DNA of 64,000 bases from an uncultured Bacilli bacterium (GTDB taxonomy: Bacteria; Bacillota_I; Bacilli_A; RF39; UBA660): contig CALVRZ010000001.1 in NCBI GenBank assembly GCA_944358875.1, positions 20,214 to 84,213 of the forward strand, given 5' to 3'. The notes under the pieces were generated by a model, which was not told the origin of the DNA, did not search any database, and saw nothing but the letters and a program-made list of their open reading frames with translations. Each line of letters starts with the position of its first letter. Position 1 is the stretch's first letter. Made by a program: the position numbers and the translations under genes. Shown here piece after piece: positions 10,245-49,510 of this stretch.

Positions 10245-12250
10245 CTCAAATTTGACAGTTGTATAAAGTTAAAAACTCACAAACCCTTTATTTATAAGGG
10301 AATGCGAGTTTTTTTGAATTTAGAAAAATGGCGTACATAATTCTTATTTATTTCATATCTAAAATTTCTTTAATTTTTTTGTAAGTTATTATCTCAGTAT
10401 CAGTATTTATGCCTAAAAAATCATGTAAAGCATCTGTTAAATCATCTCTTGTTTGTATTGGTTCAAATCCTTTTCCATTGTGCTCTAATAATTTCATTTC
10501 TTGTAATTTTGATATTATTTCATTTACAGTATATTTATCATCCAATTGATGTTCTAGATATCTATAGATAAATAATGCTAAGAAGCAAGTAATAAAATGT
10601 CCTTTTATTCTATCTTCGCGTGATAAATGAACTGTCCCAGAATCAAAGTCATCTTTCATAATTCTAAATGATTCTTCAATTTCCCATCTACCATTCATAA
10701 CTTTTATAATTGTTGCAGTATCATCAATTAAATTAGTTGTTATTCCGTATAAACCATTATATTTTTCTTCATTTTTATAAATTTCTTCATCTATGATATA
10801 TTCTATATTACAGGCGATTTCTCCAGCATCGGTTGTTTTAATTTCTTTAATAAATCTTTTAGGATCATTAGGATTTTTACTTATTTTTATTTTTTCAACA
10901 TCTTTTTTCTTTGCTATTTTTTTATTTTTCTTATTAGTTTCTTCAACTAGTTTTCTGGCACGCTCTAATTGATGTAATTTTAAATTGTACTGGTAGACTT
11001 GATATTTAAAAGAAAAAGTTACTATTAAAGTTTGCATTACTGATGCTGTTTCACATTCAATTTCTTTATAAAATATGGTGTTAAAATATTTCTTTTTTAA
11101 TTGTTCGTCTTTTTCAATTTCATCAAGATTATAAACATTCATAAGGTTTCCTAAGATTCGCCATCCTTTTCTATCTAAAGCAAATTCTTGTAATTTATTA
11201 TTTAATTTTTTTATAGATTGAGTAATTACAAAACCACGACCATCTTTGACATTAAATTTTTTAATTTCATCGGTACACATGGCTGCATCAGTACATACAA
11301 TTATGTTACTACCAGCCATGTTATAATTTTTTAAAAACTCTTCCTCAGTAGGAATCATGGTCTTAGTTTCAGAAGTATTTCCAGGATTAATATTCATAGC
11401 AAAAGGATAGCCATCAGCATCCATAAATAATCCCATTTGTACAAGTGGATTAGGTTGATGTTGTTTACTTATTCCATACCTTTGAAAATCATTTTCTTCA
11501 GTGTAGAAAAAATAGTTTGTACAATCATAATAAATAACCTTGTAATTTCTATCGATGACTTTACTACTATTGTCAAATAGTTCTTTTTGAATAGTATTTA
11601 TTTCATGTGATAAATAGGTTAATGTTCTATAAACATGTTGAAGATCAAAGTCATAATTTCCTATAAATTTTCTTGATTGTTCAAATGTTGAAAGTTTAGA
11701 AGAAGGCCATATGATACGAGCATATAGTAAGCATTCAACAACTGCATTTATATCAAATGTAAATTTATATTTATCTTTAATATTTTTACATATTTTATCA
11801 ATACCTAGATCATAATAAATTTTTCTTAAGAAAAAATGTCCAGAATAGAAGCAACGATTTATATTTTTTTCTATTTGTTTATTAGGATTTAAAGTTAAAT
11901 TAACGGGTAATTCTTTTCCATCTTTTATCATCTGATTTAAAGAGTTGATATACTCTTTGACTTTATCCATAGTATTTTCAGTACCAAATCTTTCTTTTAA
12001 GTTTTGGTCATTACCTAAGTTTTCATAAACATAAGTAGATTTTTTTCCATTAAGTTTTTTATAATCAGCAATTATGGCATAGTTATTATTGCTTTTTGTT
12101 GATACAGTTTTGAGTCTCATAAGTGTGGTACCTCCTTACATTATATTAATATTATATCATGTACGGCTTATGTACGCAAGAGTAAAATTAAAAAAAACTA
12201 GGATTTATAAGGCCTAGAACACAATTTTTTATTACAAGTGTCAAAGATGG
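10245..12250 (-). mobile_element. IS1634-family insertion sequence (~2.0 kb) with imperfect terminal inverted repeats (AAATTTGACAGTTGTATAAA / reverse complement ATCTTTGACACTTGTAATAAA)
   Basis: Single long DDE-type transposase ORF. Inverted termini read by eye (~16/21). Immediately bounded by a 62-bp direct repeat. Long variable target duplications are a known property of IS1634. Confidence 0.65.
10348..12120 (-). CDS. IS1634-family transposase
   Basis: N-terminus MRLKTVSTKSNNNYAIIADYKKLNGKKSTYVYENLG follows the IS1634-family pattern (K-x-NG-x-YYxI-x-SY...LG). ~590 aa with DDE-like acidic residues. Confidence 0.6.
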   Translation of the reverse strand: MRLKTVSTKSNNNYAIIADYKKLNGKKSTYVYENLGNDQNLKERFGTENTMDKVKEYINSLNQMIKDGKELPVNLTLNPNKQIEKNINRCFYSGHFFLRKIYYDLGIDKICKNIKDKYKFTFDINAVVECLLYARIIWPSSKLSTFEQSRKFIGNYDFDLQHVYRTLTYLSHEINTIQKELFDNSSKVIDRNYKVIYYDCTNYFFYTEENDFQRYGISKQHQPNPLVQMGLFMDADGYPFAMNINPGNTSETKTMIPTEEEFLKNYNMAGSNIIVCTDAAMCTDEIKKFNVKDGRGFVITQSIKKLNNKLQEFALDRKGWRILGNLMNVYNLDEIEKDEQLKKKYFNTIFYKEIECETASVMQTLIVTFSFKYQVYQYNLKLHQLERARKLVEETNKKNKKIAKKKDVEKIKISKNPNDPKRFIKEIKTTDAGEIACNIEYIIDEEIYKNEEKYNGLYGITTNLIDDTATIIKVMNGRWEIEESFRIMKDDFDSGTVHLSREDRIKGHFITCFLALFIYRYLEHQLDDKYTVNEIISKLQEMKLLEHNGKGFEPIQTRDDLTDALHDFLGINTDTEIITYKKIKEILDMK

Positions 12251-18889: not shown

Positions 18890-18918
18890 AAGAAACCATT
18901 TGGTTTCTTTTTTTTTTA
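18890..18918 (+). terminator. Rho-independent terminator (AAGAAACC-ATTT-GGTTTCTT + T9)
   Basis: 8-bp stem and a T-run. Confidence 0.6.
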
Positions 18919-18995
18919 GATAATTGTAGAAATTTTTGTTATTATTTGTTATAATATAGTTGAATGTACATAGGAGTGTTAAAGAGGGTGTTAGA

Positions 18996-21533
18996 ATGAA
19001 GAAGATTTATTACTTTTGGGCTTTATTATTATTTGTAATATTTAGTGGTAATGTTAAGGCATTAAATGCAACTGTTGATGTTGATGATGCTTTATATTTA
19101 AGAAAAGAACCTAGTAGTTATTCAGCTAATTTGACAGCGATTCCTGGAGGGACGAAACTAAATGGTGTTGTTATGACCAGTACGAAAGGTAATGGTTGTA
19201 CTGGTAATTGGTATTCGGTTACTTATGGAGGTCAAAGTGGTTATGTATGTGGAGATTATCTACAAATTGATAGTACTAGTAGTAATGATACGGGAAAAGT
19301 TGCTTGTTTTGAAAATGATGATCCTTTAAATATATGGACAGATGTTAATAAATCAGGACGTTTGAAACAACTTAGTTGTGATACCGAACTTAATATTTTA
19401 GAAAGAAATGTGGCAAGTAATAGTCTATGTAGTAATTGGTACAAAGTTGAACATGGTGGAACAGTAGGTTATGCTTGTGGTACTTATATTTATAATGATG
19501 ATGATAATACTGGTGGAAATAATGATACTAATGTAGGTAAGAGTACAACCGGGGATAACATTTATGAGAAAAATAATTATAGTAGCCCTGTCAATGGTGA
19601 TGGAACAGTTGCCTGCTACGAAGATACGGGAGATCTTTCTTTAAGAAGTTCGGCAGGGGGAGCTGCTAATGGATATAAGATTAGTTGTGGTACACCAGTT
19701 AAAATTAATTTTGTAAGAGAAACAAGTGGGACATGTAAATACTACTATAATATTACTAATAAATTAAATAATCAGTCTGGTTATGTATGTGGTTATTATA
19801 TAAATACAACTAAATTATCTAGTACAGCAGAGAATTACTATAAAAATAATGAGGATTTAGATGATTATTATGATAGCTTAAGAGCTAAAGGATTTCCTGA
19901 TAGTTATTTACCTTATTTAGCTGAAATTCATGCAAGACATCCTAATTGGATTTTTAATGCGGAAAAAATTAATTTGGATTTTGACGATGTTGTCTTTTAT
20001 GAATCTTTTGATGGAAGAAGTTTATTACAGGGTAGTGCTTTTGATGTTAATTATTTTTCTATGGATTTGAATACTTATGATATTTTAAATGATAAGTTTT
20101 ATGATTATGATACGGAAAATGGTTGGTATAATGCCTCAACTGAAGCTATTGCTTTTTACTTAGATCCAAGAAATTATTTGAATGAAAAATATATTTTTGC
20201 ATTTGAAAGTTTACTTTATAATGCATCACATGATGAAAGTATGGTATCTAAAATTATGAGTAATATGAACTTCTGGACTGATGTCTATAAAGGTTATTCT
20301 AGTACGATATATGCTGATGTTATTAAAGCTAGTAAAGATGTTGATATTAGTGCTATTCATGTAGCTAGTCGTATTAAACAAGAGATTAGTGGTATTTCTA
20401 CTAGTGATCCTAGATTAGGGGGAGTGTTTACTTATAATAATAAGAAATATTCTGGATATTATAATTTTTTTAACATTAATGTTTATGGTGATAATAAAAT
20501 CGTAAATGGTATGGTATATGCAATGAATAATGATTGGGATACTCCATATAAAGCTGTTCTTGGTGGTAGTAGTTTTATCAGAGGCAATTATATTGGAGTT
20601 AATCAAGATACAGTTTATTATGAAAAATTTGATGTTTCTACTACTGATGGTCATTATACGCATCAATATCAACAGAATTTAGCTGTAGCAATGCAAGAGA
20701 CTAATTCAACATTTAATAGTTATGTTAGCTTAGATAATTATTTTGATCAGAATCTTGTCTTTACTATTCCTGTCTACAATAATATGAGTACATATGCTGT
20801 TACTTCTCCTAGTTTAGGTAATCCTAATAATTATTTAAAGGATTTGAAAGTTAATGGTACGACTGTGAGTGGTTTTAGTTACAGTGATTATGAGTATGAT
20901 ATTACATTACCAGCAGGAACAAAGAGTATTAATGTTACTGCGACAAAGATTAATAATAATGCTAGTATAAGTGGCGATGGCAATATTACTATTGATAGTG
21001 ATAAGAAAACAGTTAATATTGTGGTAACAGCGCAAAATGGTCGAACAAGAACTTATACTTTAAATATTACAAGAACACAGGCTAGTGAAGATGAGATTAT
21101 CGATATTGATGTTATTATGAATAATACAGGAATAAAATATAATGGTGATTATATTTATGGTATTTATGAGAGTACTAATATTAATAGTTTGATTAATAAT
21201 GTTGAGAAGATTAGTGAGTTTGCTAGTGCCAGTATTAAAGATAAAGATGGTAATGCTAAGAATAATGGTATCTTTAAAACAGGTGATGTAGTTACTATTA
21301 GTAATTCTAAAGAAAGTGCTAGTTATACAGTTGTTATCTATGGCGATGCTAATGGAGATGGTGCGATTGAAAGCTTAGATTATTTAGCAATACTTCGTCA
21401 TATGTATAATTATGATAGATTAGAGGGAGTATATGCAAGTGCTGCGGATGCTAATCATGATGGTGATATTAATGAGCTTGATTATTTGGCTGTTTTAAGA
21501 GATTACTATGGCTATGCTAAAATTGTTCAGTAA
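18996..21533 (+). CDS. Secreted multidomain surface protein: signal peptide, three SH3b repeats, central putative cell-wall glycoside-hydrolase-like domain, cadherin-like beta-sandwich domain, C-terminal type I dockerin
   Basis: NWY(S/K)V...GYVCG SH3b motifs three times. Cadherin-like LKDLKVNG...YDITLP...TYTLNITR. Dockerin GDANGDGAIESLDYLAILRH...ADANHDGDINELDYLAVLRDYY. Start moved to the MKKIYYFWALLLF signal peptide with RBS AGAGGG. Confidence 0.6.
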   Translation: MKKIYYFWALLLFVIFSGNVKALNATVDVDDALYLRKEPSSYSANLTAIPGGTKLNGVVMTSTKGNGCTGNWYSVTYGGQSGYVCGDYLQIDSTSSNDTGKVACFENDDPLNIWTDVNKSGRLKQLSCDTELNILERNVASNSLCSNWYKVEHGGTVGYACGTYIYNDDDNTGGNNDTNVGKSTTGDNIYEKNNYSSPVNGDGTVACYEDTGDLSLRSSAGGAANGYKISCGTPVKINFVRETSGTCKYYYNITNKLNNQSGYVCGYYINTTKLSSTAENYYKNNEDLDDYYDSLRAKGFPDSYLPYLAEIHARHPNWIFNAEKINLDFDDVVFYESFDGRSLLQGSAFDVNYFSMDLNTYDILNDKFYDYDTENGWYNASTEAIAFYLDPRNYLNEKYIFAFESLLYNASHDESMVSKIMSNMNFWTDVYKGYSSTIYADVIKASKDVDISAIHVASRIKQEISGISTSDPRLGGVFTYNNKKYSGYYNFFNINVYGDNKIVNGMVYAMNNDWDTPYKAVLGGSSFIRGNYIGVNQDTVYYEKFDVSTTDGHYTHQYQQNLAVAMQETNSTFNSYVSLDNYFDQNLVFTIPVYNNMSTYAVTSPSLGNPNNYLKDLKVNGTTVSGFSYSDYEYDITLPAGTKSINVTATKINNNASISGDGNITIDSDKKTVNIVVTAQNGRTRTYTLNITRTQASEDEIIDIDVIMNNTGIKYNGDYIYGIYESTNINSLINNVEKISEFASASIKDKDGNAKNNGIFKTGDVVTISNSKESASYTVVIYGDANGDGAIESLDYLAILRHMYNYDRLEGVYASAADANHDGDINELDYLAVLRDYYGYAKIVQ

Positions 21534-21545
21534 GGAGGAAAAAGA

Positions 21546-22865
21546 ATGAAATGTGTTGGTAATATAAAATTGGTGATATTTGGAATATTTTGTTTCATAG
21601 CTTTTAATTTTAATGTAAATGCTACTAGTAGTGTTAGCCTTAAGGCTAGTGCTACATCTGTTACAGTAGGTGATACAATTACTATAACTACAACTTTTAG
21701 TTCTGATGTTGGTCTTGTTTGGACTAAGGCTTCTGTTGAATGCCGAGGCGCAGGGGTTAAAGAGTCAGGTAAAAGTATTGATAAGGCTTTAACAAATGAT
21801 AAGACTTATCAAGAAAGCTATAAAATTAGACCTACTTCTTCTGGTACTATTACTTGTACGGTTTCAAGTGCAAAGATTCTTGATATGAATAGCGATCAAA
21901 ATTTAGGTAATGATGCATGGATTAATTTATCTAATAAGTCATTAACTATTCAAGTTAAAGAACCTGTTGTTATTACTCCTCAAGAGTATTCTTCAAATAA
22001 TTATTTAGAGAATTTGAGCATTGATGGTTTTGAATTAAGTCCAGAATTTGATAAAGAAACTTTAGAATATAGTGTCGAAGTTCCTAATGATACTGAGAAA
22101 GTTATTATCAATGCTAAAAAGGAAGATAGTACAGCATCAGTGAGTGGATCTGGAGAAGTTAGTGTCAGTGAAGGAGCTAATAAGATTGAAGTTAAAGTAA
22201 CGGCACAAAATGGTAATGAGAGAATATATGTCATTAATGTTAATGTTGAAGAGTTAGATCCTATTAAGGTAACGATCGATGATAAAGAGTATACCATTAT
22301 TCGAAAAAATGATGTTTTAGAACCACCTCAAGGTTATGAAGAGACAACGGTTATGATTGATGGTGAAGAGGTTTTAGCTTATACAAATGATCAAACTAAA
22401 TATACTTTAGTTGGCTTAAAAGATGAGGAAGGAAATAGTGCTTGGTATATTTATGATGAAGAAAAAGATACTTATACCCCTTATGTTTTTTATAATTTCA
22501 ATGGGGTTAGTTTGATCACCCTCGATATGCCTAAAAATTTAATACCAGATGGTTTTGTTAAATCTTCATTTGAATATAATGATGAGAGAGTCGAAGGATA
22601 TAAATATAAGAGTAATAGCCAGTTTTACTTAATTTATGGTATGAATAGTGAAACAGGAGAAAAAGGTCTTTATATGTTCGATAAGAAAGAGGGAACAGTT
22701 CAAAGATTTAATGATGAAATTGCTGATATTTATAAAGATAAAGCGGATTTATATTTTATGATATTAATGATTGTTTCAGGAATCGTGGGTGTTGCTATTG
22801 TCGCTACGGCGGTTGTCTTAATTGTAAGAACTAAGAAACGAAAGAAGAATAAAATTAAATTTTAA
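21546..22865 (+). CDS. Cell-surface protein: signal peptide, N-terminal beta-rich domain, cadherin-like beta-sandwich domain, C-terminal TM anchor with basic tail
   Basis: NYLENLSIDGFELSPEFDKETLEYSVEVP...IYVINVNV, and C-terminal ILMIVSGIVGVAIVATAVVLIVRTKKRKK. Confidence 0.5.
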   Translation: MKCVGNIKLVIFGIFCFIAFNFNVNATSSVSLKASATSVTVGDTITITTTFSSDVGLVWTKASVECRGAGVKESGKSIDKALTNDKTYQESYKIRPTSSGTITCTVSSAKILDMNSDQNLGNDAWINLSNKSLTIQVKEPVVITPQEYSSNNYLENLSIDGFELSPEFDKETLEYSVEVPNDTEKVIINAKKEDSTASVSGSGEVSVSEGANKIEVKVTAQNGNERIYVINVNVEELDPIKVTIDDKEYTIIRKNDVLEPPQGYEETTVMIDGEEVLAYTNDQTKYTLVGLKDEEGNSAWYIYDEEKDTYTPYVFYNFNGVSLITLDMPKNLIPDGFVKSSFEYNDERVEGYKYKSNSQFYLIYGMNSETGEKGLYMFDKKEGTVQRFNDEIADIYKDKADLYFMILMIVSGIVGVAIVATAVVLIVRTKKRKKNKIKF

Positions 22866-23027
22866 GCATAAAATATAATGTCATTATGATTAATGATATG
22901 AATGGGTTCAAGGTTTTGAATTCATTCTTTTTTGTTTCTACACGATTTGGTTGGAACTAAAAAATAAGTTTTCCGACGAAGTGTTGGGAAGCTTTTTTTA
23001 CGTTCATGTCCCTTTATTTATTTTTGA

Positions 23028-23056
23028 AGGTAAAAATTTGACAATTGTTTGCTTTT
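23028..23056 (+). promoter_or_regulatory. Consensus sigma-A promoter TTGACA-N17-TATAAT upstream of two small genes and ftsA-ftsZ
   Basis: Perfect hexamers with 17-bp spacer. Confidence 0.55.
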
Positions 23057-23099
23057 TTGGTATAATTTCTCTTTGCTACGGAAAGAGAGGAGGGTGTTT

Positions 23100-23288
23100 A
23101 TGACTGATAATTTTTATGTTCCAATTAGAACTATTGAATTTAATAATAGATTTTTAATTACTGTTGGTATACCAGTTTTAGTAGATGGTATTTTTATAGG
23201 TTATACTGATTTGCATGTTGTATCACATGAAGAATATCATGCTAAATACCGTTCTAGTTCTGACAAAATGAAAAAATTAGTAAGATAA
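23100..23288 (+). CDS. Small protein (62 aa), paralog of the next gene
   Basis: RBS GAGGAGGG. C-terminus HEEYHAKYRSSSDK resembles LEEYRQKYRPVGAR of its neighbour. Confidence 0.45.
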   Translation: MTDNFYVPIRTIEFNNRFLITVGIPVLVDGIFIGYTDLHVVSHEEYHAKYRSSSDKMKKLVR

Positions 23289-23320
23289 ATTAATATAGTT
23301 GTTAAGGAGGATGTAGTAAT

Positions 23321-23524
23321 ATGTATTATAATAATGAATATATTGTCCCTTGTAAAGTTGAAGAAAAGGGAGGAAATACTTTTGTAACTATTGGTGTTCT
23401 TAATTTTACATCTGATGGTGCGATTAAGAGTGTTAAACCTTTTGAAACGTTATCTTTAGAAGAATATCGTCAAAAGTATCGTCCGGTTGGTGCAAGGGTA
23501 AGAGCTAAAAAGAGAACGAGATAA
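23321..23524 (+). CDS. Small protein (67 aa), paralog of the previous gene
   Basis: RBS AAGGAGG. Same architecture (beta-rich N-terminus, basic C-terminus). Confidence 0.45.
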   Translation: MYYNNEYIVPCKVEEKGGNTFVTIGVLNFTSDGAIKSVKPFETLSLEEYRQKYRPVGARVRAKKRTR

Positions 23525-23612
23525 ATAAATATATTAAAAAGGAAGAAAAAAATCTTTCTTTTTTCTTTATTATTTGATATAATTAGTATGTATCATTTTA
23601 GGGAGAGTCGGT

Positions 23613-26617: not shown

Positions 26618-28153
26618 ATGAATATAATAGAACAAAATAAGAAAAAAATCAATGGGAAATTAGAAACTTTTGACAGAATGATAATAAACGGATATTTATT
26701 AAACCTATGTAATTATAGACATTTTCTATATTATCTAATACAAAACAATATTCAATTAAAAGATTTTGATAAATTTGCTTTAGAACAAACAAAAGAATTA
26801 TGTAATCACATTGATAATTATATCAATGAAAATAACATTCAAACAATTTATCTTAATTCTGGTAAGATTGATAAAAATGAAATTGTTATGCGTGAATTAG
26901 ATAAAAATCCTAATAAAACTGGTTTAATATCTGTATTATCAGCAGTTGAAATATGTAATACTATGACTGTTAAACCAAATCATGAATCTCAAAAATTAGA
27001 AGTTACATCTAGACCTACTAAATGTAAACATTATTATTTTTATTTTAATGATAAAGAATTTGGTTTAATGTATTTAAAAATACAAACTTGGTTTCCTTAT
27101 AATGTTCAAATATATATTAATGGACGTGAATATTTATCTAAGTTGCTTGAAAAAAACAATATAAAATATGAAATGTATAATAATTCATTTTCATATATTG
27201 AAGATTTTTCAAAAGCTCAAAAACTTGCAGATGATATTCTTAACAAGAAGATTTCTGATTCATTTGATGGATTAATTAAGCAAATAAATATACACTTACC
27301 TAAAATAGAAAAAATATTTAGTCATTCTTACTATTGGTGTATTGATCAATGCGAGTTTGCAACCGACATTAATTTTAAGAGTCGTGATGACTTAAGTTTA
27401 TTTTATAAGACACTGGTTGAAACTGCATATTTCACTTTTAGTTCTGAAGATATTTATTCTTTCTTTGGTAGAAATGTATCTAGAATTCATACTTTTTCTA
27501 AAGGAGAAATTGTTTCTGATTTAAGAAACAGGTATCAAGGTTACCGAATAAAATTTAAAATAAATAATAATCAAATAAAAATGTATGATAAAGGAAACAA
27601 TTTAAGAATCGAAGTTACTATTAATAATCCAAAAGATTTTAAAGTCCTTAAAGAAAAAGAAAAAATTGTAGAACATAAAACATTAGAAAAAGAAAAAGTT
27701 TGGGTACCTATGGGTAAGAGTATATCTAACTTATATAGATATGTTGAAATAAGTAAATCTATTACTAAAAGGTATATTGAATCATTACCTCTAGTAAATA
27801 TTGATGAAGTTCCAATTTCTGATATAGAAAAACTTTCTTCTTCAATAACTGTTAATAATAAAAAATATACTGGTTTTAATATACTAGAAAAAGATACATT
27901 AAAACTTTTTTCTATTATTTCTAAGGGAGAATATTTAATTAATGGTTTTTCTAACAAGTCAATTAGAAAACAATATTTTGAAGGAGATATAACTTCTAAA
28001 GAAATAAATAGACTTACTAGACTATTATCTAAATTAAAAGCTCATGGACTAATTAAAAAAGTAGCTAGAAAAAACAAATATTATCTAACTACCAAAGGTC
28101 GTAAAATAACAAATAGTATATTGATCTATACTAAAAAAAAGTTGTTAAATTAA
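26618..28153 (+). CDS. Hypothetical 511-aa protein, very AT-rich, flanked by long direct repeats; likely horizontally acquired cargo of unknown function
   Basis: Long uninterrupted ORF with RBS-like GGAGTGG. No motif I can assign. Confidence 0.5.
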   Translation: MNIIEQNKKKINGKLETFDRMIINGYLLNLCNYRHFLYYLIQNNIQLKDFDKFALEQTKELCNHIDNYINENNIQTIYLNSGKIDKNEIVMRELDKNPNKTGLISVLSAVEICNTMTVKPNHESQKLEVTSRPTKCKHYYFYFNDKEFGLMYLKIQTWFPYNVQIYINGREYLSKLLEKNNIKYEMYNNSFSYIEDFSKAQKLADDILNKKISDSFDGLIKQINIHLPKIEKIFSHSYYWCIDQCEFATDINFKSRDDLSLFYKTLVETAYFTFSSEDIYSFFGRNVSRIHTFSKGEIVSDLRNRYQGYRIKFKINNNQIKMYDKGNNLRIEVTINNPKDFKVLKEKEKIVEHKTLEKEKVWVPMGKSISNLYRYVEISKSITKRYIESLPLVNIDEVPISDIEKLSSSITVNNKKYTGFNILEKDTLKLFSIISKGEYLINGFSNKSIRKQYFEGDITSKEINRLTRLLSKLKAHGLIKKVARKNKYYLTTKGRKITNSILIYTKKKLLN

Positions 28154-35575: not shown

Positions 35576-35594
35576 TATAATACATTTAAAGCGT

Positions 35595-35785
35595 TTGATG
35601 AAGGAGTAGTAGTAATCTTCTTAATTTTAGAGAGTAAGTGGATGGTGGGAACTTATATTAAGAGATTATGAACTTGCCTTTGGAGTGTCTTTAGACCGGG
35701 TAATGCCGTTATACGTAAGTAAGTAATAAGGTAGGATGGTACCGCGTAAGAAACGCTCCTAGAATAGGGGTGTTTTTATTTGGAA
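35595..35785 (+). promoter_or_regulatory. T-box-like leader (tRNA-sensing riboswitch) upstream of leuS
   Basis: Conserved T-box-like element GGATGGTACCGCG at 35734-35746, a stem I-like AGAGAG...GGTGGGAAC region, and a terminator-like stem with T-run at 35750-35780. Possible Leu specifier CUU in GAACUUGCC. Confidence 0.5.
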
Positions 35786-35797
35786 GGAGGAAAATAG

Positions 35798-36139
35798 GTG
35801 AGATATGTATTTGAATATGTGATTGTTTTTCTCTTGGTATTTGTTATTAATTATTTCTTATTTATTAGAAAGAAAAAGAGATATAATAAGAAGAAGGTAC
35901 CAGTAGAGTTAGCTTATTTACTCTTAGTATATAAGATAGATGTTAAAAAGATTAATTATAAGAGATTTGTATGGATATATTCTTTAGTTAATACTTTTAT
36001 TGTTAGTACGGTCTATATGATTGTTATGTATTTAGTCGAGGGTATTGTATGGCAGTTAATCGTCGGTATTATACTTCTTATCTTACTTACAATTATATGT
36101 TATGGCATTATGGGAAGAGTTTATGAAAGGAAGGAATAG
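35798..36139 (+). CDS. Small membrane protein (3 TM, GTG start) between the T-box leader and leuS
   Basis: RBS GGAAGGAGG 7 nt upstream of GTG. Three hydrophobic segments. Confidence 0.4.
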   Translation: MRYVFEYVIVFLLVFVINYFLFIRKKKRYNKKKVPVELAYLLLVYKIDVKKINYKRFVWIYSLVNTFIVSTVYMIVMYLVEGIVWQLIVGIILLILLTIICYGIMGRVYERKE

Positions 36140-36141
36140 TT

Positions 36142-38544
36142 ATGTATAATTTTAAAGAAATTGAAAGTAAATGGCAAAATTATTGGAAAGAACATGAGTG
36201 TTTTAAAGCAAGTGATGATTTTAGTAAGAAGAAATGGTATGGTCTAGTTGAATTTCCTTATCCAAGTGGAGCAGGGATGCATGTTGGTCATATTAAGGCT
36301 TATTCAGGATTAGAGGTTATTGCTAGAAAGAGAAGAATGGAAGGATATAATGTTTTATTTCCTATTGGTTTTGATGCTTTTGGTCTTCCAACGGAAAACT
36401 ATGCGATTAAGACCAATATTCATCCGCGAAAAGTTACGGATAAGAATATTGAAACTTTTACTAATCAGTTGAATAGAACCGGTTTTTCCTTTGATATGAG
36501 TAGAGTTATTGATACGACAGATAGTAATTATTATAAGTGGACCCAATGGATCTTTCTTAAGATGTTTGAAAAAGGATTAGCTTTTAAGGATAAGACGTTA
36601 GTTAATTATTGTCCTTCTTGTAAGGTTGTTTTATCTAATGAGGATTCACAAGGTGGTAAGTGTGATATTTGTCATAATCAAGTTATTCAGAAGGAAAAAG
36701 AGGTATGGTATTTAAGAATTACGGAATATGCTGATAAGTTACTTGAAGGATTAAAGGAAGTTGATTATTTACCTAATATTAAATTACAACAAGAAAACTG
36801 GATTGGAAAGTCAAAGGGAGCTTTTGTTAGATTTAAAGTAAAAGAAGTAAATGATGAATTTAAGATTTATACAACAAGACCAGATACTTTATTTGGTGTT
36901 ACTTTCATGGTAATGGCCCCTGAACATCCGATTATTGATAAGTATAAGGATAAAATTAGTAATTTTGATGAAATTATTAGTTACCGCAAAGAAGCTCAGA
37001 AGAAAACAGAATTTGAAAGAACCCAACTTGTTAAGGATAAGACAGGAGTTAAAATTGAAGGATTTACGGCAATTAATCCGGTGAACGAGAAAGAAATACC
37101 TATTTATATATCTGATTATGTTATGATGGGATATGGTACAGGGGCTATTATGGCGGTTCCGGCCCATGATGAACGTGATTATGATTTTGCTAAGAAATTT
37201 GGTATTGATATTATCCCTGTAATTGAGGGAGGAGATATTACTAAGGAAGCTTATACCGGCGATGGTAATATGATTAATTCGGATTTCTTAAATGGGATGA
37301 CTAATAAGAAGGATTCTATTACGAAGATGATTAGTTATCTTGAAGATAAGGGTATTGGTGAAAGTGCTGTTCAATATAAGATGAAAGATTGGGCTTTTAA
37401 TCGGCAAAGATATTGGGGAGAACCTATTCCTATTATTTATTGTGAACATTGTGGTATGGTTCCTGTTCCTTATGATGAGTTACCTCTTAAATTGCCAGAA
37501 ATGGATAATTTTGAACCGGGTACAGATGGAGAAAGTCCACTAGCGAAGATCGATAGTTTTGTTAATTGTAAGTGTCCTAAATGTGGTAGAGATGCGAAAA
37601 GAGAAACGGATACGATGCCTCAGTGGGCGGGATCTAGTTGGTATTATTTAAGGTATATTGATCCACATAATGATAATGAACTTGCTAGTATGGATAAACT
37701 TAAGTATTGGTTGCCAGTCGACTGGTATAATGGTGGTATGGAACATGTTACAAGACATCTTATTTATTCTAGATTTTGGCATCGTTTCTTATATGATATT
37801 GGGGTAGTTCCAACGAAAGAACCTTATGCTAAGAGAACAGCGCAAGGCTTAGTTTTAGGACCTGATGGGGATAAGATGAGTAAGAGTAAGGGAAATGTTG
37901 TCGATCCTAATCAGATTATTGATGTGTATGGTGCTGATGTTCTTAGAACTTATATCTTATTTATGGGTGAATATGGCTTAGAAAGTCCATGGAATGATAA
38001 TGCGATTAAGGGTGTTAGTAGATTTTTGGATAAGGTATATAATTTACATGATAAGGTTATCAGTGGGGATAATTATACTAATGAACTAGAAGTTATGATT
38101 AATAAGACGATTAAAAAAGTTAGCGAAGATTATGAAAATATGAAATATAATACGGCGATATCAGAACTTATGAAATTAACTAATGCTTTTGCTAATAGTG
38201 AGAAGATAACAAAAGCTGATTATCTAGTTTTAATAAAACTTTTAAATCCGGTTGCACCTCATTTGGCGGAAGAACTTAATAGTTTAATAGGAAATAAGGA
38301 AACATTAGTATTTGCTAGTTTTCCAACTTACGATGATGAAAAAATTGTCGATGATGTGTTAGAGATTGCCGTTCAAGTTAATGGTAAACTTAGAGATTCA
38401 ATTAAGGTTAAGAAAGATGAAGATAAGAAAGTTGTCGAAGAAACGGCCCTTGCTTCTGTTAATGTTAAAAGACATATTGAAGGTAAGGAAATAGTTAAAG
38501 TAATCGTCGTACCTAATCGTATTGTTAATATTGTTGTTAAGTAA
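36142..38544 (+). CDS. leuS: Leucine--tRNA ligase
   Basis: HVGHIKAY (HIGH), KMSKS, and the CP1 editing domain. Confidence 0.95.
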   Translation: MYNFKEIESKWQNYWKEHECFKASDDFSKKKWYGLVEFPYPSGAGMHVGHIKAYSGLEVIARKRRMEGYNVLFPIGFDAFGLPTENYAIKTNIHPRKVTDKNIETFTNQLNRTGFSFDMSRVIDTTDSNYYKWTQWIFLKMFEKGLAFKDKTLVNYCPSCKVVLSNEDSQGGKCDICHNQVIQKEKEVWYLRITEYADKLLEGLKEVDYLPNIKLQQENWIGKSKGAFVRFKVKEVNDEFKIYTTRPDTLFGVTFMVMAPEHPIIDKYKDKISNFDEIISYRKEAQKKTEFERTQLVKDKTGVKIEGFTAINPVNEKEIPIYISDYVMMGYGTGAIMAVPAHDERDYDFAKKFGIDIIPVIEGGDITKEAYTGDGNMINSDFLNGMTNKKDSITKMISYLEDKGIGESAVQYKMKDWAFNRQRYWGEPIPIIYCEHCGMVPVPYDELPLKLPEMDNFEPGTDGESPLAKIDSFVNCKCPKCGRDAKRETDTMPQWAGSSWYYLRYIDPHNDNELASMDKLKYWLPVDWYNGGMEHVTRHLIYSRFWHRFLYDIGVVPTKEPYAKRTAQGLVLGPDGDKMSKSKGNVVDPNQIIDVYGADVLRTYILFMGEYGLESPWNDNAIKGVSRFLDKVYNLHDKVISGDNYTNELEVMINKTIKKVSEDYENMKYNTAISELMKLTNAFANSEKITKADYLVLIKLLNPVAPHLAEELNSLIGNKETLVFASFPTYDDEKIVDDVLEIAVQVNGKLRDSIKVKKDEDKKVVEETALASVNVKRHIEGKEIVKVIVVPNRIVNIVVK

Positions 38545-41229: not shown

Positions 41230-41306
41230 TGGCGTTCACGAGGGGAGTTGAACCCCTGACCTTTCCCTTCGGAGGGGAATATTCTATCCAACTGAACTAC
41301 GTGAAC
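41230..41306 (-). tRNA. tRNA-Arg (anticodon CCG)
   Basis: Reverse complement folds as a cloverleaf GTTCACG/CGTGAAC acceptor, anticodon loop CTCCGAA, T-loop TTCAACT. CCA encoded. Confidence 0.8.
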
Positions 41307-41566
41307 ATAACTATATTATATCAATTTTATTATTTTTTGCAAAGGGAAATCTGGACTTTTATTAATTTAGATGGTATGATATTGATAGTAGATAATAAAT
41401 AATGAACGAAAAGTGAGGCAGGTAAGTGTGATAGTTTATGATAAATCTAATAAATATAGGGAAATGAGTGTAAATTTAAAAGAGCTTAGTAGAAATGAAT
41501 AACTTTTTACTAAGTTCTTTAATTTTAATAAAAAAAGCCTTGAAAATCAAGACTATATAATCTAAA

Positions 41567-41643
41567 TGGTCGGGAAGACAGGATTTGAACCTGCAACCCC
41601 TTGGTCCCAAACCAAGTGCTCTACCAAGTTGAGCCACTTCCCG
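41567..41643 (-). tRNA. tRNA-Pro (anticodon UGG)
   Basis: Acceptor CGGGAAG/CTTCCCG, anticodon stem CTTGG/CCAAG, loop TTTGGGA. CCA encoded. Confidence 0.8.
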
Positions 41644-41648
41644 ATAAA

Positions 41649-41725
41649 TGGTGGAGAATGAGGGACTCGAACCCTTGACCCTCTGCGTGCAAGGCAGATG
41701 CTCTAGCCAACTGAGCTAATTCCCC
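41649..41725 (-). tRNA. tRNA-Ala (anticodon UGC)
   Basis: Acceptor GGGGAAT/ATTCTCC including the G3:U70 identity pair, anticodon loop CTTGCAC. CCA encoded. Confidence 0.85.
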
Positions 41726-49424: not shown

Positions 49425-49510
49425 TGCCGGCCTGGCGGAATGGTAGACGCGACAGACTCAAAATCTGTTACTAGCAATAGTGTGAGGGTTCAAGTCCCTT
49501 GGCCGGTACC
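49425..49510 (+). tRNA. tRNA-Leu (anticodon CAA), class II with long variable arm, preceded by an extended -10 promoter
   Basis: Acceptor GCCGGCC/GGCCGGT (G1:U72), anticodon loop CTCAAAA, variable arm ~16 nt. CCA encoded. Terminator hairpin at 49517-49545. Confidence 0.8.

What the first reader, a model, noticed from the sequence alone, without database searches (positions are those of the whole stretch)
18996..22865. Dockerin-bearing SH3b cell-wall-hydrolase-like protein adjacent to a membrane-anchored cadherin-like surface protein: possible two-protein cell-surface complex
The 857-aa secreted protein ends in a clear type I dockerin duplicated calcium-binding segment (GDANGDGAIESLDYLAILRH / ADANHDGDINELDYLAVLRDYY). 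It follows three SH3b repeats, a central domain with weak GH73-like glucosaminidase features, and a cadherin-like domain. The downstream 439-aa protein has a signal peptide, a ~110-aa N-terminal beta-rich region that could be a cohesin-like receptor, a cadherin-like domain and a C-terminal TM anchor. Dockerins outside cellulolytic clostridia are uncommon, so a local cognate partner would be notable.
Basis: partly seen in the sequence, partly recalled or inferred. Interest (0 to 1): 0.55.

Follow-up and report, generated by a model that had tools for sequence, protein, structure and literature searches.

The report
Wall-cutting enzyme with its own membrane dock
Two adjacent genes in an uncultured gut bacterium encode a secreted cell-wall-cutting enzyme ending in a calcium-dependent plug (dockerin) and a membrane-anchored protein whose tip is a diverged socket (cohesin). 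Plug and socket have changed together across more than 70 related species, so this is very likely a private tether that holds the enzyme on the cell that made it.

Summary
Window 18996-22865 is a two-gene operon bounded by terminators.

Gene 1 (845 aa from ATG 18996, not 857) carries:
- a signal peptide and three SH3b repeats;
- a solid GH73 glucosaminidase (family profile vs SagB, E 2e-25; catalytic Glu invariant in 73/73);
- a cadherin-like domain and a small pre-dockerin module;
- a type I dockerin (Pfam 38-45 bits, cut-off 22.9).

Gene 2 (439 aa) carries a signal peptide, a 115-aa N-domain, a cadherin-like domain, a domain with no solved-fold relative, and a C-terminal membrane anchor.

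The window's N-domain fails Pfam Cohesin. Three results still link it to cohesins:
- The same domain in orthologues passes the cut-off (up to 38 bits; 36 of 97 family representatives match at E <= 0.001).
- The window class aligns to those orthologues at 98.3% hhalign probability, against 0.1-6% for controls.

Evidence that the two modules are partners:
- The genes are adjacent in every one of about 78 loci with sufficient upstream DNA.
- Dockerin class matches N-domain class without exception.
- Their divergences correlate far more than any other domain pair (partial r 0.70).
- They are swapped together as one DNA block.

Physical binding is untested. A GH73-linked single cohesin/dockerin was noted earlier in Ruminococcus bicirculans. 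I classify this as a new variant of a known kind.

The parts
18890..18909 (+). Terminator-like hairpin that closes the upstream transcription unit
   Evidence: 8-bp stem followed by a T run
18927..18955 (+). Promoter-like site (TAGAAA-17-TATAAT with a TG extension) about 40 nt before the gene 1 start
   Evidence: This is a consensus match only; the number of such sites in the region is not above the shuffled expectation.
18996..21533 (+). Gene 1: secreted 845-aa SH3b x3 / GH73 / cadherin-like / X module / dockerin protein
18996..19070 (+). Signal peptide of gene 1 (about aa 1-25, MKKIYYFWALLLFVIFSGNVKALNA)
   Evidence: Read directly from the sequence; no predictor was run
19068..19814 (+). Three SH3b repeats (aa 25-95, 99-170, 203-273)
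20016..20822 (+). GH73 N-acetylglucosaminidase catalytic domain (about aa 341-609). The catalytic-position Glu463 lies at nt 20382-20384.
   Evidence: family profile vs SagB 6u0o/6fxp at E 2-3e-25, Atl at 3e-21, AtlE at 1e-19. E463 conserved 73/73, N490 73/73, Y558 72/73.
20835..21074 (+). Cadherin-like beta-sandwich domain of gene 1 (aa 614-693)
   Evidence: 30.1 bits. It is homologous to the gene 2 copy (hhalign 99.8%).
21075..21332 (+). Small conserved module directly before the dockerin ('X module', aa 694-779); no family assignment
   Evidence: only sub-threshold hits. It is conserved in the orthologue alignment.
21339..21530 (+). Type I dockerin with two calcium-loop/helix segments (aa 782-845)
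   Evidence: 38.2 and 45.3 bits, cut-off 22.9. D1 and D12 invariant, N3 and D5 conserved; the two segments resemble each other.
21546..22865 (+). Gene 2: 439-aa type I membrane protein (N-domain, cadherin-like domain, C-domain, TM anchor)
21546..21623 (+). Signal peptide of gene 2 (aa 1-26)
   Evidence: Read directly from the sequence. An N-terminal hydrophobic region is present in 97/97 family representatives.
21624..21965 (+). N-terminal cohesin-derived domain (aa 27-140, 'class A', with invariant Cys66 and Cys104); the proposed dockerin receptor
22008..22244 (+). Cadherin-like beta-sandwich domain of gene 2 (aa 155-233)
   Evidence: 46.7 bits. Present in 90/97 representatives.
22251..22730 (+). 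Membrane-proximal all-beta domain (aa 236-395) with no family and no solved-fold relative
22758..22862 (+). C-terminal transmembrane helix (aa 405-427) and basic cytoplasmic tail (aa 428-439); no LPXTG motif
   Evidence: Read directly from the sequence. TM helix in 76/97 representatives, LPXTG in 0/97.
22900..22994 (+). Two terminator-like hairpins that close the operon (22900-22927 and 22966-22994)

Best explanation
This is a self-contained two-gene cassette.

Shown or strongly inferred from sequence:
- Gene 1 is a secreted, probably active GH73 N-acetylglucosaminidase. Three SH3b repeats would bind peptidoglycan, and a C-terminal calcium-binding type I dockerin ends the protein.
- Gene 2 is a single-pass membrane protein whose outermost domain is a short, diverged cohesin.

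Inferred mechanism:
1. After Sec export, the dockerin plugs into the cohesin-derived domain of the protein encoded immediately downstream.
2. The hydrolase is thereby held on the producer's own membrane.
3. The cadherin-like and C-domains of gene 2 act as a stalk that sets the enzyme's distance from the membrane.
4. There it trims or separates the cell's own peptidoglycan instead of diffusing away.

The plug and socket diversify together, so each lineage has its own matching pair.

Not shown: physical binding, calcium dependence, enzyme activity and the physiological role.
For: Gene 1 identity:
- Dockerin above the Pfam cut-off, with invariant Ca ligands D1 and D12 and conserved N3 and D5.
- The dockerin's two segments are kept alike within a protein: 0.75 identity, against 0.35 between proteins.
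- GH73 confirmed, with the catalytic Glu conserved 73/73.

Gene 2 N-domain as a cohesin relative:
- Orthologues pass Pfam Cohesin: 27.2-38.4 bits against a cut-off of 24.1.
- 36 of 97 family representatives match Pfam Cohesin at E <= 0.001.
- The top 17 PDB hits of their profile are all cohesins.
- The window class is homologous to them: hhalign 98.3%, E 2e-14. Controls against three other beta domains of the same proteins score 0.1-5.9%.
- An HMM built only from the cohesin-positive class finds the window domain as its sole hit in the 64 kb, at E 3.8e-6.

Pairing:
- Gene 1 lies immediately upstream of gene 2 in every locus with sufficient upstream DNA, about 78 of the 81 held.
- In the 73 pairs complete enough to parse, the gap is -73 to +15 nt. 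The neighbourhoods differ between loci.
- There is exactly one dockerin per locus, in 80 of 81 loci.
- Dockerin class and N-domain class pair without exception: 33 A, 30 B including two intermediates, and 10 C.
- Pairwise-identity correlation between dockerin and N-domain is 0.86, against <= 0.71 for all other domain pairs.
- The partial correlation controlling for GH73, Cad2 and C-domain is 0.70, against <= 0.30 for other pairs. None of 2000 permutations reached it.
- Among 37 closely related pairs, 31 keep both modules, 6 change both and none is discordant.
- L003 vs L006: a single ~560-bp block, exactly dockerin + signal peptide + N-domain, falls to 41-69% identity in a cassette that is otherwise about 72-94% identical.
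- L068 vs L081: a recombination breakpoint sits at the N-domain/cadherin junction, so the N-domain travels with gene 1 rather than with the rest of its own protein.

Anchor: TM helix plus basic tail, no LPXTG.

Operon: bounded by terminator-like hairpins.
Against: - No binding experiment and no complex model.
- The window's own N-domain has no Pfam Cohesin hit at E <= 10, and its class profile finds no cohesin in the PDB.
- The domain is about 115 aa. Pfam matches cover only profile positions about 2-105 of 139, so it is shorter than canonical cohesins.
- Dockerin and N-domain are adjacent in the DNA, so a single recombination tract could move both without any functional link.
- Other cohesins elsewhere in the genome cannot be excluded. 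Only 64 kb, plus up to 10 kb either side of each related locus, were seen.
Confidence: 0.72

Rival explanations
1. Dockerin and N-domain do not bind each other. Both are exposed, fast-evolving surface modules, for example under phage or host-antibody pressure. They share an evolutionary history only because they are neighbours in the DNA and are replaced by the same recombination tracts.
For: The two modules form one contiguous ~560-bp stretch, and the clearest swap is a single block. The N-domain is a local divergence hotspot even against the nearest relative: 48-62% identity against about 70-94% elsewhere.
Against: - The signal peptide lies between the two modules yet does not co-vary with either (partial r 0.07 and 0.09). 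It is short and noisy, so this is weak evidence.
- The X module directly upstream of the dockerin co-varies only weakly with the dockerin (partial r 0.30).
- Class pairing holds over deep divergence, down to 33% identity, with no exception in 73 pairs.
- The N-domain is homologous to the one protein fold known to receive dockerins.
- The two dockerin segments are kept symmetrical, which implies selection on a binding surface.
Confidence: 0.1
2. The dockerin binds a different cohesin encoded elsewhere, such as a wall-anchored scaffold. Gene 2 is a functionally related surface protein whose N-domain is only an Ig-like spacer.
For: The window class fails cohesin HMMs, and Foldseek sees only generic folds. 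The genome outside the window was not examined.
Against: - There is exactly one dockerin and at most one cohesin-like domain per locus across 81 loci, and none other in the 64-kb window.
- Dockerin class and N-domain class co-vary without exception.
- A comparable single cohesin plus single dockerin linked to GH73 is reported for R. bicirculans (PMC4611034).
Confidence: 0.08
3. The tether exists, but the enzyme is a weapon rather than a housekeeping autolysin. It would be a surface-displayed lysin that attacks neighbouring bacteria on contact. Private plug/socket pairs would stop competitors from capturing or stripping it.
For: The three SH3b targeting repeats and rapid, class-wise diversification of the docking pair are typical of conflict systems. 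The cassette sits in different neighbourhoods in different species.
Against: - No immunity-like gene lies in the operon.
- The closest solved relatives are housekeeping staphylococcal glucosaminidases SagB, Atl and AtlE.
- The cassette is present once in each of the ~80 loci recovered from different GTDB species genomes (one match per locus), a pattern more typical of a core function. How many related lineages lack it was not checked.
Confidence: 0.15
4. Prophage-derived endolysin or tail lysin remnant.
For: The GH73 core matches a PHROG annotated as a tail-associated cell-wall hydrolase, E 2.9e-10.
Against: - The match covers only about 80 residues of the catalytic core, and gene 2 has no PHROG hit.
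- Both proteins have Sec signal peptides.
- No phage genes flank the cassette: the neighbours are an MFS transporter and ftsA/ftsZ.
- The cassette is conserved in its own bounded operon.
Confidence: 0.02

Closest known systems
Single cohesin plus single dockerin associated with a GH73 enzyme in the non-cellulolytic gut Firmicute Ruminococcus bicirculans (stated in Ze et al. 2015, PMC4611034, citing Wegmann et al. 2014, which is not held in the library)
   Same: A non-cellulolytic gut bacterium in which one dockerin and one cohesin are linked to a GH73 peptidoglycan hydrolase.
   Different: - Only a one-sentence genome remark was accessible, so I could not check architecture, gene order or homology to this cassette.
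- The organism is a Clostridia member, not the uncultured Bacilli seen here.
- The accessible text describes no co-diversification, membrane anchor or divergent cohesin class.
Clostridium perfringens non-cellulosomal cohesin-dockerin pairs that assemble glycoside-hydrolase toxin complexes (NagJ and NanJ cohesins; PDB 2w1n, 2vo8, 2o4e, 2ozn)
   Different: - There the cohesin sits on another soluble enzyme; here it sits on a dedicated membrane-anchored receptor.
- Sequence identity is 13-14%.
- The present domain is shorter.
- The gene pair here is bicistronic.
Type I cohesin-dockerin of cellulosomes (for example Clostridium thermocellum CipA and enzyme dockerins)
   Same: A duplicated 22-24-residue Ca-loop/helix dockerin that passes PF00404. 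Variability falls at helix positions 10, 11, 17, 18 and neighbouring positions, which I recall as the canonical contact positions. Internal two-fold symmetry is compatible with dual binding.
   Different: - There is no scaffoldin, no multi-enzyme assembly and no plant-polysaccharide enzymes.
- There is one enzyme and one receptor.
- The anchor is a TM helix rather than SLH domains or sortase.
Staphylococcus aureus SagB-SpdC peptidoglycan release complex
   Same: The closest solved catalytic relative (E 2e-25; NCBIfam SagB model). The logic is the same: a GH73 glucosaminidase kept at the membrane by a partner membrane protein.
   Different: - From my recollection, SagB has its own TM helix and binds SpdC within the membrane.
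- Here the enzyme is fully secreted and would be attached through an extracellular cohesin-dockerin contact.
- Gene 2 is unrelated to SpdC.

Membership tests
Type I dockerin (Pfam PF00404) | Profile score above the curated cut-off | tested here: met
   38.2 bits in the whole protein and 45.3 bits on the isolated module, against a cut-off of 22.9. EF-hand models are all below their cut-offs.
Type I dockerin (Pfam PF00404) | Two tandem Ca-binding loops (D1, N3, D5, D12), each followed by a helix | tested here: met
   The window has DANGDGAIESLD and DANHDGDINELD. Across 71 family members, D1 is 71/71 (segment 1) and 69/71 (segment 2), and D12 is 71/71 and 70/71. N3 and D5 are conserved in 58-69 of 71.
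Type I dockerin (Pfam PF00404) | Calcium-dependent binding to a cohesin | not testable with these tools
   Needs ELISA or ITC with and without EDTA, or a multimer prediction.
Cohesin (Pfam PF00963), gene 2 N-domain | Profile score above the curated cut-off for the window sequence itself | tested here: not met
   No Cohesin hit at E <= 10 for the window N-domain or for the full protein.
Cohesin (Pfam PF00963), gene 2 N-domain | Positional orthologues score above the cut-off, and the window domain is homologous to them | tested here: met
   - Five orthologues score 27.2-38.4 bits against 24.1.
- 36 of 97 representatives match at E <= 0.001.
- hhalign window class vs the cohesin-positive class: 98.3%, E 2e-14. 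Controls: 0.1-5.9%.
- The class-B-only HMM hits the window domain at E 3.8e-6.
Cohesin (Pfam PF00963), gene 2 N-domain | Cohesin beta-sandwich fold | tested here: inconclusive
   [not shown]
Cohesin (Pfam PF00963), gene 2 N-domain | Binds a dockerin | not testable with these tools
   Only indirect evidence: exclusive class pairing, partial r 0.70, and joint block replacement.
Glycoside hydrolase family 73 (N-acetylglucosaminidase) | Sequence homology to characterised GH73 catalytic domains | tested here: met
   Family profile vs SagB at E 2.3e-25, Atl at 2.9e-21, AtlE at 1.2e-19, and 5wqw at 8.6e-14. Pfam's Glucosaminidase model hits 0 of 13 members.
Glycoside hydrolase family 73 (N-acetylglucosaminidase) | Conserved catalytic glutamate | tested here: met
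   E463 aligns with the Glu of the SagB 'LLETG' segment and is invariant in 73/73 family members. That this Glu is SagB's general acid is my recollection.
Glycoside hydrolase family 73 (N-acetylglucosaminidase) | Hydrolysis of the GlcNAc-MurNAc bond of peptidoglycan | not testable with these tools
   Needs zymography or muropeptide analysis.
Sortase-anchored (LPXTG) surface protein, considered for gene 2 | LPXTG motif before the C-terminal hydrophobic segment | tested here: not met
   No LPXTG-like motif in the window protein or in 0/97 representatives. The Pfam Gram_pos_anchor hit is at E 0.65 and covers the TM/tail only.

The most novel reading that the evidence does not exclude
The cassette is a naturally co-diversifying minimal lock-and-key. 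At least three deep classes, with sub-classes, of short (~115 aa) cohesin-type sockets are each matched to its own dockerin and exchanged between lineages as one ~560-bp block. Each lineage thereby gets a private address for its own wall hydrolase. This would be a form of self/non-self control of an autolysin, preventing capture of, or by, neighbours' enzymes. It would also be a ready-made set of orthogonal, compact protein-protein connectors.
Probability: 0.3. Interest if true: 0.7.

Novelty: new variant of a known kind. Interest (0 to 1): 0.55.

Why it matters
How bacteria keep their own wall-cutting enzymes from killing them or drifting away is an active question. Known answers include enzymes with their own membrane helix plus a membrane partner (SagB-SpdC), wall-binding repeats, and ABC-transporter-like activators.

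A secreted GH73 enzyme held by an extracellular cohesin-dockerin contact to a dedicated membrane receptor would add a different solution. The cassette was found in about 80 genomes of different GTDB species. The receptor's N-domain profile matches about a thousand 50%-identity clusters (E <= 0.001), though part of these are unrelated Ig-repeat proteins. It occurs in a large, uncultured, genome-reduced group of gut Bacilli.

The finding also shows that standard cohesin models miss a whole derived class of the domain, so cohesin censuses in gut metagenomes are undercounts.

The matched, mutually exclusive plug/socket classes are directly testable as specificity variants and could serve as compact orthogonal connectors in protein engineering.

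Tried and rejected
1. Fused-chain complex prediction. I built 37 paired constructs (dockerin + Gly/Ser linker + gene 2 ectodomain, alignment A4). A read-through translation across the two in-frame genes is blocked by the stop codon. No complex model exists.
2. Third homologue search with the class-B N-domain profile. It returned only 13 mostly fragmentary proteins and added little apart from two small SP-cohesin-TM proteins.
3. Foldseek against the PDB for the N-domain. Only generic beta-sandwich hits and no cohesin. I report this as evidence against a diagnostic fold match.
5. Wegmann et al. 2014, the R. bicirculans genome paper. It is not held, so the precedent rests on one sentence in PMC4611034.
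6. Prophage lysin. Rejected on context and PHROG results.
7. Sortase anchoring. Rejected because there is no LPXTG motif.
8. The giant proteins at the top of the representative search. They looked like multi-cohesin scaffoldins but are Big_12 Ig-repeat/LRR proteins. Their scores accumulate over 6-15 weak repeats. They are not relatives in any useful sense. They do show that the class-A profile carries generic Ig-like signal.
9. Genome-wide count of cohesins and dockerins. Not possible, because only the window and up to 10 kb either side of related loci were available.

Full report
**What is there**

The region holds two same-strand, same-frame ORFs 12 nt apart. A terminator-like hairpin (18890-18909) and a promoter-like site (18927-18955) precede them. 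Two terminator-like hairpins (22900-22994) follow, and then a perfect consensus promoter leads into ftsA/ftsZ. It therefore looks like an autonomous two-gene operon.

The window is a 24-33% GC Firmicute-type sequence. Related loci come from uncultured gut MAGs labelled Bacilli, Tenericutes, Mollicutes or Clostridium sp. CAG:302. The isolate names point to human, goat, rabbit and roe-deer samples among others.

**Gene 1**

- The real start is ATG 18996, giving 845 aa. Gene calls on two independent contigs use the same start.
- Pfam gives SH3_3, Cadherin-like (aa 614-693) and Dockerin_1 (aa 782-833; 38.2 bits against a cut-off of 22.9).
- On the isolated module, the dockerin scores 45.3 bits while all EF-hand models stay below their cut-offs. 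The 'generic EF-hand' refutation therefore fails.
- Three SH3b repeats are real. Repeats 1 and 2 score 40.6 and 26.1 bits. Repeat 3 is matched at i-E 8e-13 by an HMM built only from repeats 1 and 2 of the family.
- The central domain is a solid GH73.
  - The single sequence hits SagB, AtlE and Atl at E 7e-10 to 3e-8.
  - A 13-member family profile hits SagB at E 2.3e-25 over about 270 positions, Atl at 2.9e-21 and AtlE at 1.2e-19.
  - Pfam's own Glucosaminidase model misses all 13 members.
- The Glu aligned with SagB's LLETG glutamate (E463) is invariant in 73/73 orthologues. N490 (73/73) and Y558 (72/73) are also conserved.

**Gene 2**

The 439-aa protein has these parts:
- a signal peptide;
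- an N-domain (aa 27-140) with no Pfam family;
- a Cadherin-like domain (46.7 bits);
- a C-domain (aa 236-395) with no family;
- a hydrophobic helix (aa 405-427) followed by RTKKRKKNKIKF.

The family is large. The N-domain profile finds 1044 representatives of 50%-identity clusters at E <= 0.001, although part of that list is unrelated Ig-repeat proteins (see below). Most of the 150 best-scoring hits listed are 420-600 aa with the domain at residues about 25-145.

Among 97 representatives:
- 90 have the cadherin-like domain;
- 76 have a strong C-terminal TM helix;
- none has LPXTG.

It is therefore a type I membrane protein, not a sortase substrate.

**Is the N-domain a cohesin?**

Directly, no. 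The window sequence has no Cohesin hit at E <= 10, and the profile of its own class finds no cohesin in the PDB.

Across orthologues, the N-domain comes in three sequence classes.

- **Class B** carries the motif 'LGxWxFxLxYDxSxLxL'. It passes the Pfam Cohesin cut-off in five tested orthologues (27.2-38.4 bits against 24.1). 36 of 97 representatives match Pfam Cohesin at E <= 0.001 (best E 4.5e-10). The top 17 PDB hits of the class-B profile are all cohesins.
- **Class A**, the window's class, has two invariant cysteines in CxGAG ... SGTxTC.
- **Class C** has the motif AGxFxITSS.

All three are homologous:
- A vs B: 98.3%, E 2e-14;
- C vs B: 98.2%;
- C vs A: 96.8%.

The same profiles score only 0.1-5.9% against three other beta domains of the same proteins. 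Intermediates exist (L036, L039). An HMM made only from class B finds the window's N-domain as its single hit in the six-frame translation of the window (E 3.8e-6).

My reading is that this is a shortened, derived cohesin. It is supported by homology and by position in the protein. Fold comparison allows this reading but does not prove it.

**Are the two modules partners?**

1. **Adjacency.** A gene 1 homologue lies immediately upstream of the gene 2 homologue in every locus with sufficient upstream DNA, about 78 of the 81 held.
   - In the 73 pairs complete enough to parse, the gap is -73 to +15 nt, and identity to the window falls as low as 33%.
   - The surrounding genes differ between loci.
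   - In the loci where its C-terminus could be read, gene 1 always ends in a two-segment dockerin.
   - A family dockerin HMM finds exactly one dockerin in 80 of 81 loci and never two. The window also holds exactly one dockerin and one cohesin-like domain.

2. **Class pairing.** Dockerin helix classes pair with N-domain classes as follows:

| Dockerin class | N-domain class | Pairs |
|---|---|---|
| LDYLAxLR, DDCLxILR, LDAxxIL | A | 33 |
| DLLxxQK | B, plus the two intermediates | 30 |
| DYVxIKN, DFIxIKK | C or C-like | 10 |

   There is no cross-class combination.

3. **Co-variation.** The correlation of pairwise identities is 0.86 for dockerin vs N-domain and at most 0.71 for every other pair of eight domains.
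   - After regressing out GH73, Cad2 and C-domain divergence, the partial correlation is 0.70. The largest value in 2000 label permutations was 0.11.
   - By comparison, X-module vs dockerin is 0.30, and signal peptide vs either module is at most 0.09.

4. **Natural swaps.** Among 37 locus pairs with background identity >= 75%, 31 keep both modules, 6 have changed both and none is discordant. The six represent three events.
   - L003 vs L006: the cassette DNA is about 72-94% identical except for one block at nt ~2340-2900, which falls to 41-69%. That block is exactly dockerin + signal peptide + N-domain.
   - L068 vs L081: DNA downstream of the N-domain/cadherin junction is 88-100% identical, and everything upstream mostly <= 70% (peaks to 0.81). 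The N-domain thus shares its history with gene 1, not with the rest of its own protein.
   - Window vs its nearest relative, L002: the N-domain falls to 48-62% against about 70-94% elsewhere. The dockerin differs at loop/helix positions 9-10, ES and NE in the window against DK and DK in L002.

5. **Dockerin anatomy.** Ca ligands D1 and D12 are invariant or nearly so, and N3 and D5 are conserved. Variability concentrates at positions 10, 11, 13, 15 and 17-21. From memory, these include the canonical contact positions of type I dockerins. The two segments of one dockerin are 75% identical over positions 9-24, against 35% between proteins. That is the internal symmetry expected of a dual-binding dockerin.

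The weakness of points 2 to 4 is that the two modules are contiguous in the DNA, so joint inheritance alone could produce part of the signal. The lack of co-variation of the intervening signal peptide and of the flanking X module argues against that, but does not settle it.

**Mechanism proposed**

- Shown by sequence: a secreted GH73 with intact catalytic residues, three wall-binding SH3b repeats and a Ca-type dockerin; and a membrane-anchored protein tipped by a cohesin-derived domain, encoded in the same operon.
- Inferred: after export, the dockerin docks on the cohesin-derived tip. The enzyme is thereby retained on the producer's membrane, at a height set by the cadherin-like and C-domains. 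There it remodels the cell's own peptidoglycan.
- In logic this resembles the SagB-SpdC arrangement of S. aureus, the closest solved catalytic relative, but it uses an extracellular protein-protein plug.
- Whether the enzyme serves housekeeping or attack on neighbours is open.

**Comparison with what is known**

- Non-cellulosomal cohesin-dockerin pairs are established: the C. perfringens toxin complexes (the best structural hits) and the R. bromii amylosome.
- Ze et al. [quoted passage not shown] They add that examples in non-cellulolytic species are few (PMC4611034).
- Literature searches for dockerin or cohesin combined with peptidoglycan hydrolase, autolysin, GH73 or glucosaminidase found no functional study of such a pair.
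- The kind is therefore known and the GH73 association has been noted before. The new points here are:
  - the conserved bicistronic cassette in uncultured gut Bacilli;
  - the dedicated TM-anchored receptor architecture;
  - the derived cohesin classes that Pfam misses;
  - the block-wise co-diversification of the two modules.

**Caveat from the representative search**

Several of the highest-scoring hits of the N-domain profile are giant Big_12/LRR surface proteins. Their scores accumulate over 6-15 weak repeats. The class-A profile therefore also carries generic Ig-like signal. That is one more reason not to rest the case on fold or weak sequence similarity alone.

**Verdict**

I put the probability that this dockerin binds this N-domain at about 0.72.

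Noticed in passing
window 23038-23612: A perfect consensus promoter (TTGACA-17-TATAAT with TG) lies about 550 nt upstream of ftsA. Between it and ftsA are two small ORFs, about 62 aa (23100-23288) and 67 aa (23321-23524). Both end in a similar '(E)EY..KYR' basic tail and look like paralogues. Gene callers on other contigs call both.
   Followed up: partly
[not shown]
   Followed up: partly
window 20835-21074 and 22008-22244: The cadherin-like domains of gene 1 and gene 2 are clear homologues of each other (hhalign 99.8%, E 6e-30). A second contact between the two proteins through these domains is conceivable but was not tested.
   Followed up: no
gene 2 N-domain Cys66/Cys104 (window 21741-21743, 21855-21857); class 'DDCLxILR' dockerins in L003, L007, L010 and others: The class-A N-domains have two invariant cysteines absent from class B, possibly forming a disulfide. 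One dockerin sub-class carries a cysteine at position 13 of both segments. The N-domain cysteines are invariant in both dockerin sub-classes, so no correlation between the two features is apparent.
   Followed up: no
P0251, P0252: These ~213-aa proteins consist only of a signal peptide, a cohesin-like domain, a low-complexity linker and a C-terminal TM helix with a basic tail. Minimal membrane-anchored cohesins may therefore exist outside this cassette.
   Followed up: no
window 10348-12120 (- strand): A 590-aa DDE transposase (PF01609) lies on the minus strand. It coincides with the only 2-kb bin of negative GC skew in the window.
   Followed up: partly
window 26618-28153: A 511-aa ORF directly after ftsZ has no Pfam family. 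It sits in a stretch of low GC (0.24) and near-zero GC skew, so it may be an insertion.
   Followed up: no
L068 vs L081 (locus cassette nt ~2998): A sharp recombination breakpoint falls exactly at the N-domain/cadherin-like junction of gene 2. Identity is 88-100% downstream and mostly <= 70% (peaks to 0.81) upstream, including all of gene 1.
   Followed up: yes
P0254, P0261: Giant Big_12/LRR surface proteins, one with a T9SS sorting domain, also carry sub-threshold Dockerin_1 matches (E 5e-4, 20.6 bits).
   Followed up: no
window 35585-35763; 41233-41725; 49426-49508: A T-box leader at gathering score lies directly upstream of the small ORF at 35798-36139, which is followed by an 800-aa ORF (36142-38544). 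Four tRNA genes are also present.
   Followed up: no
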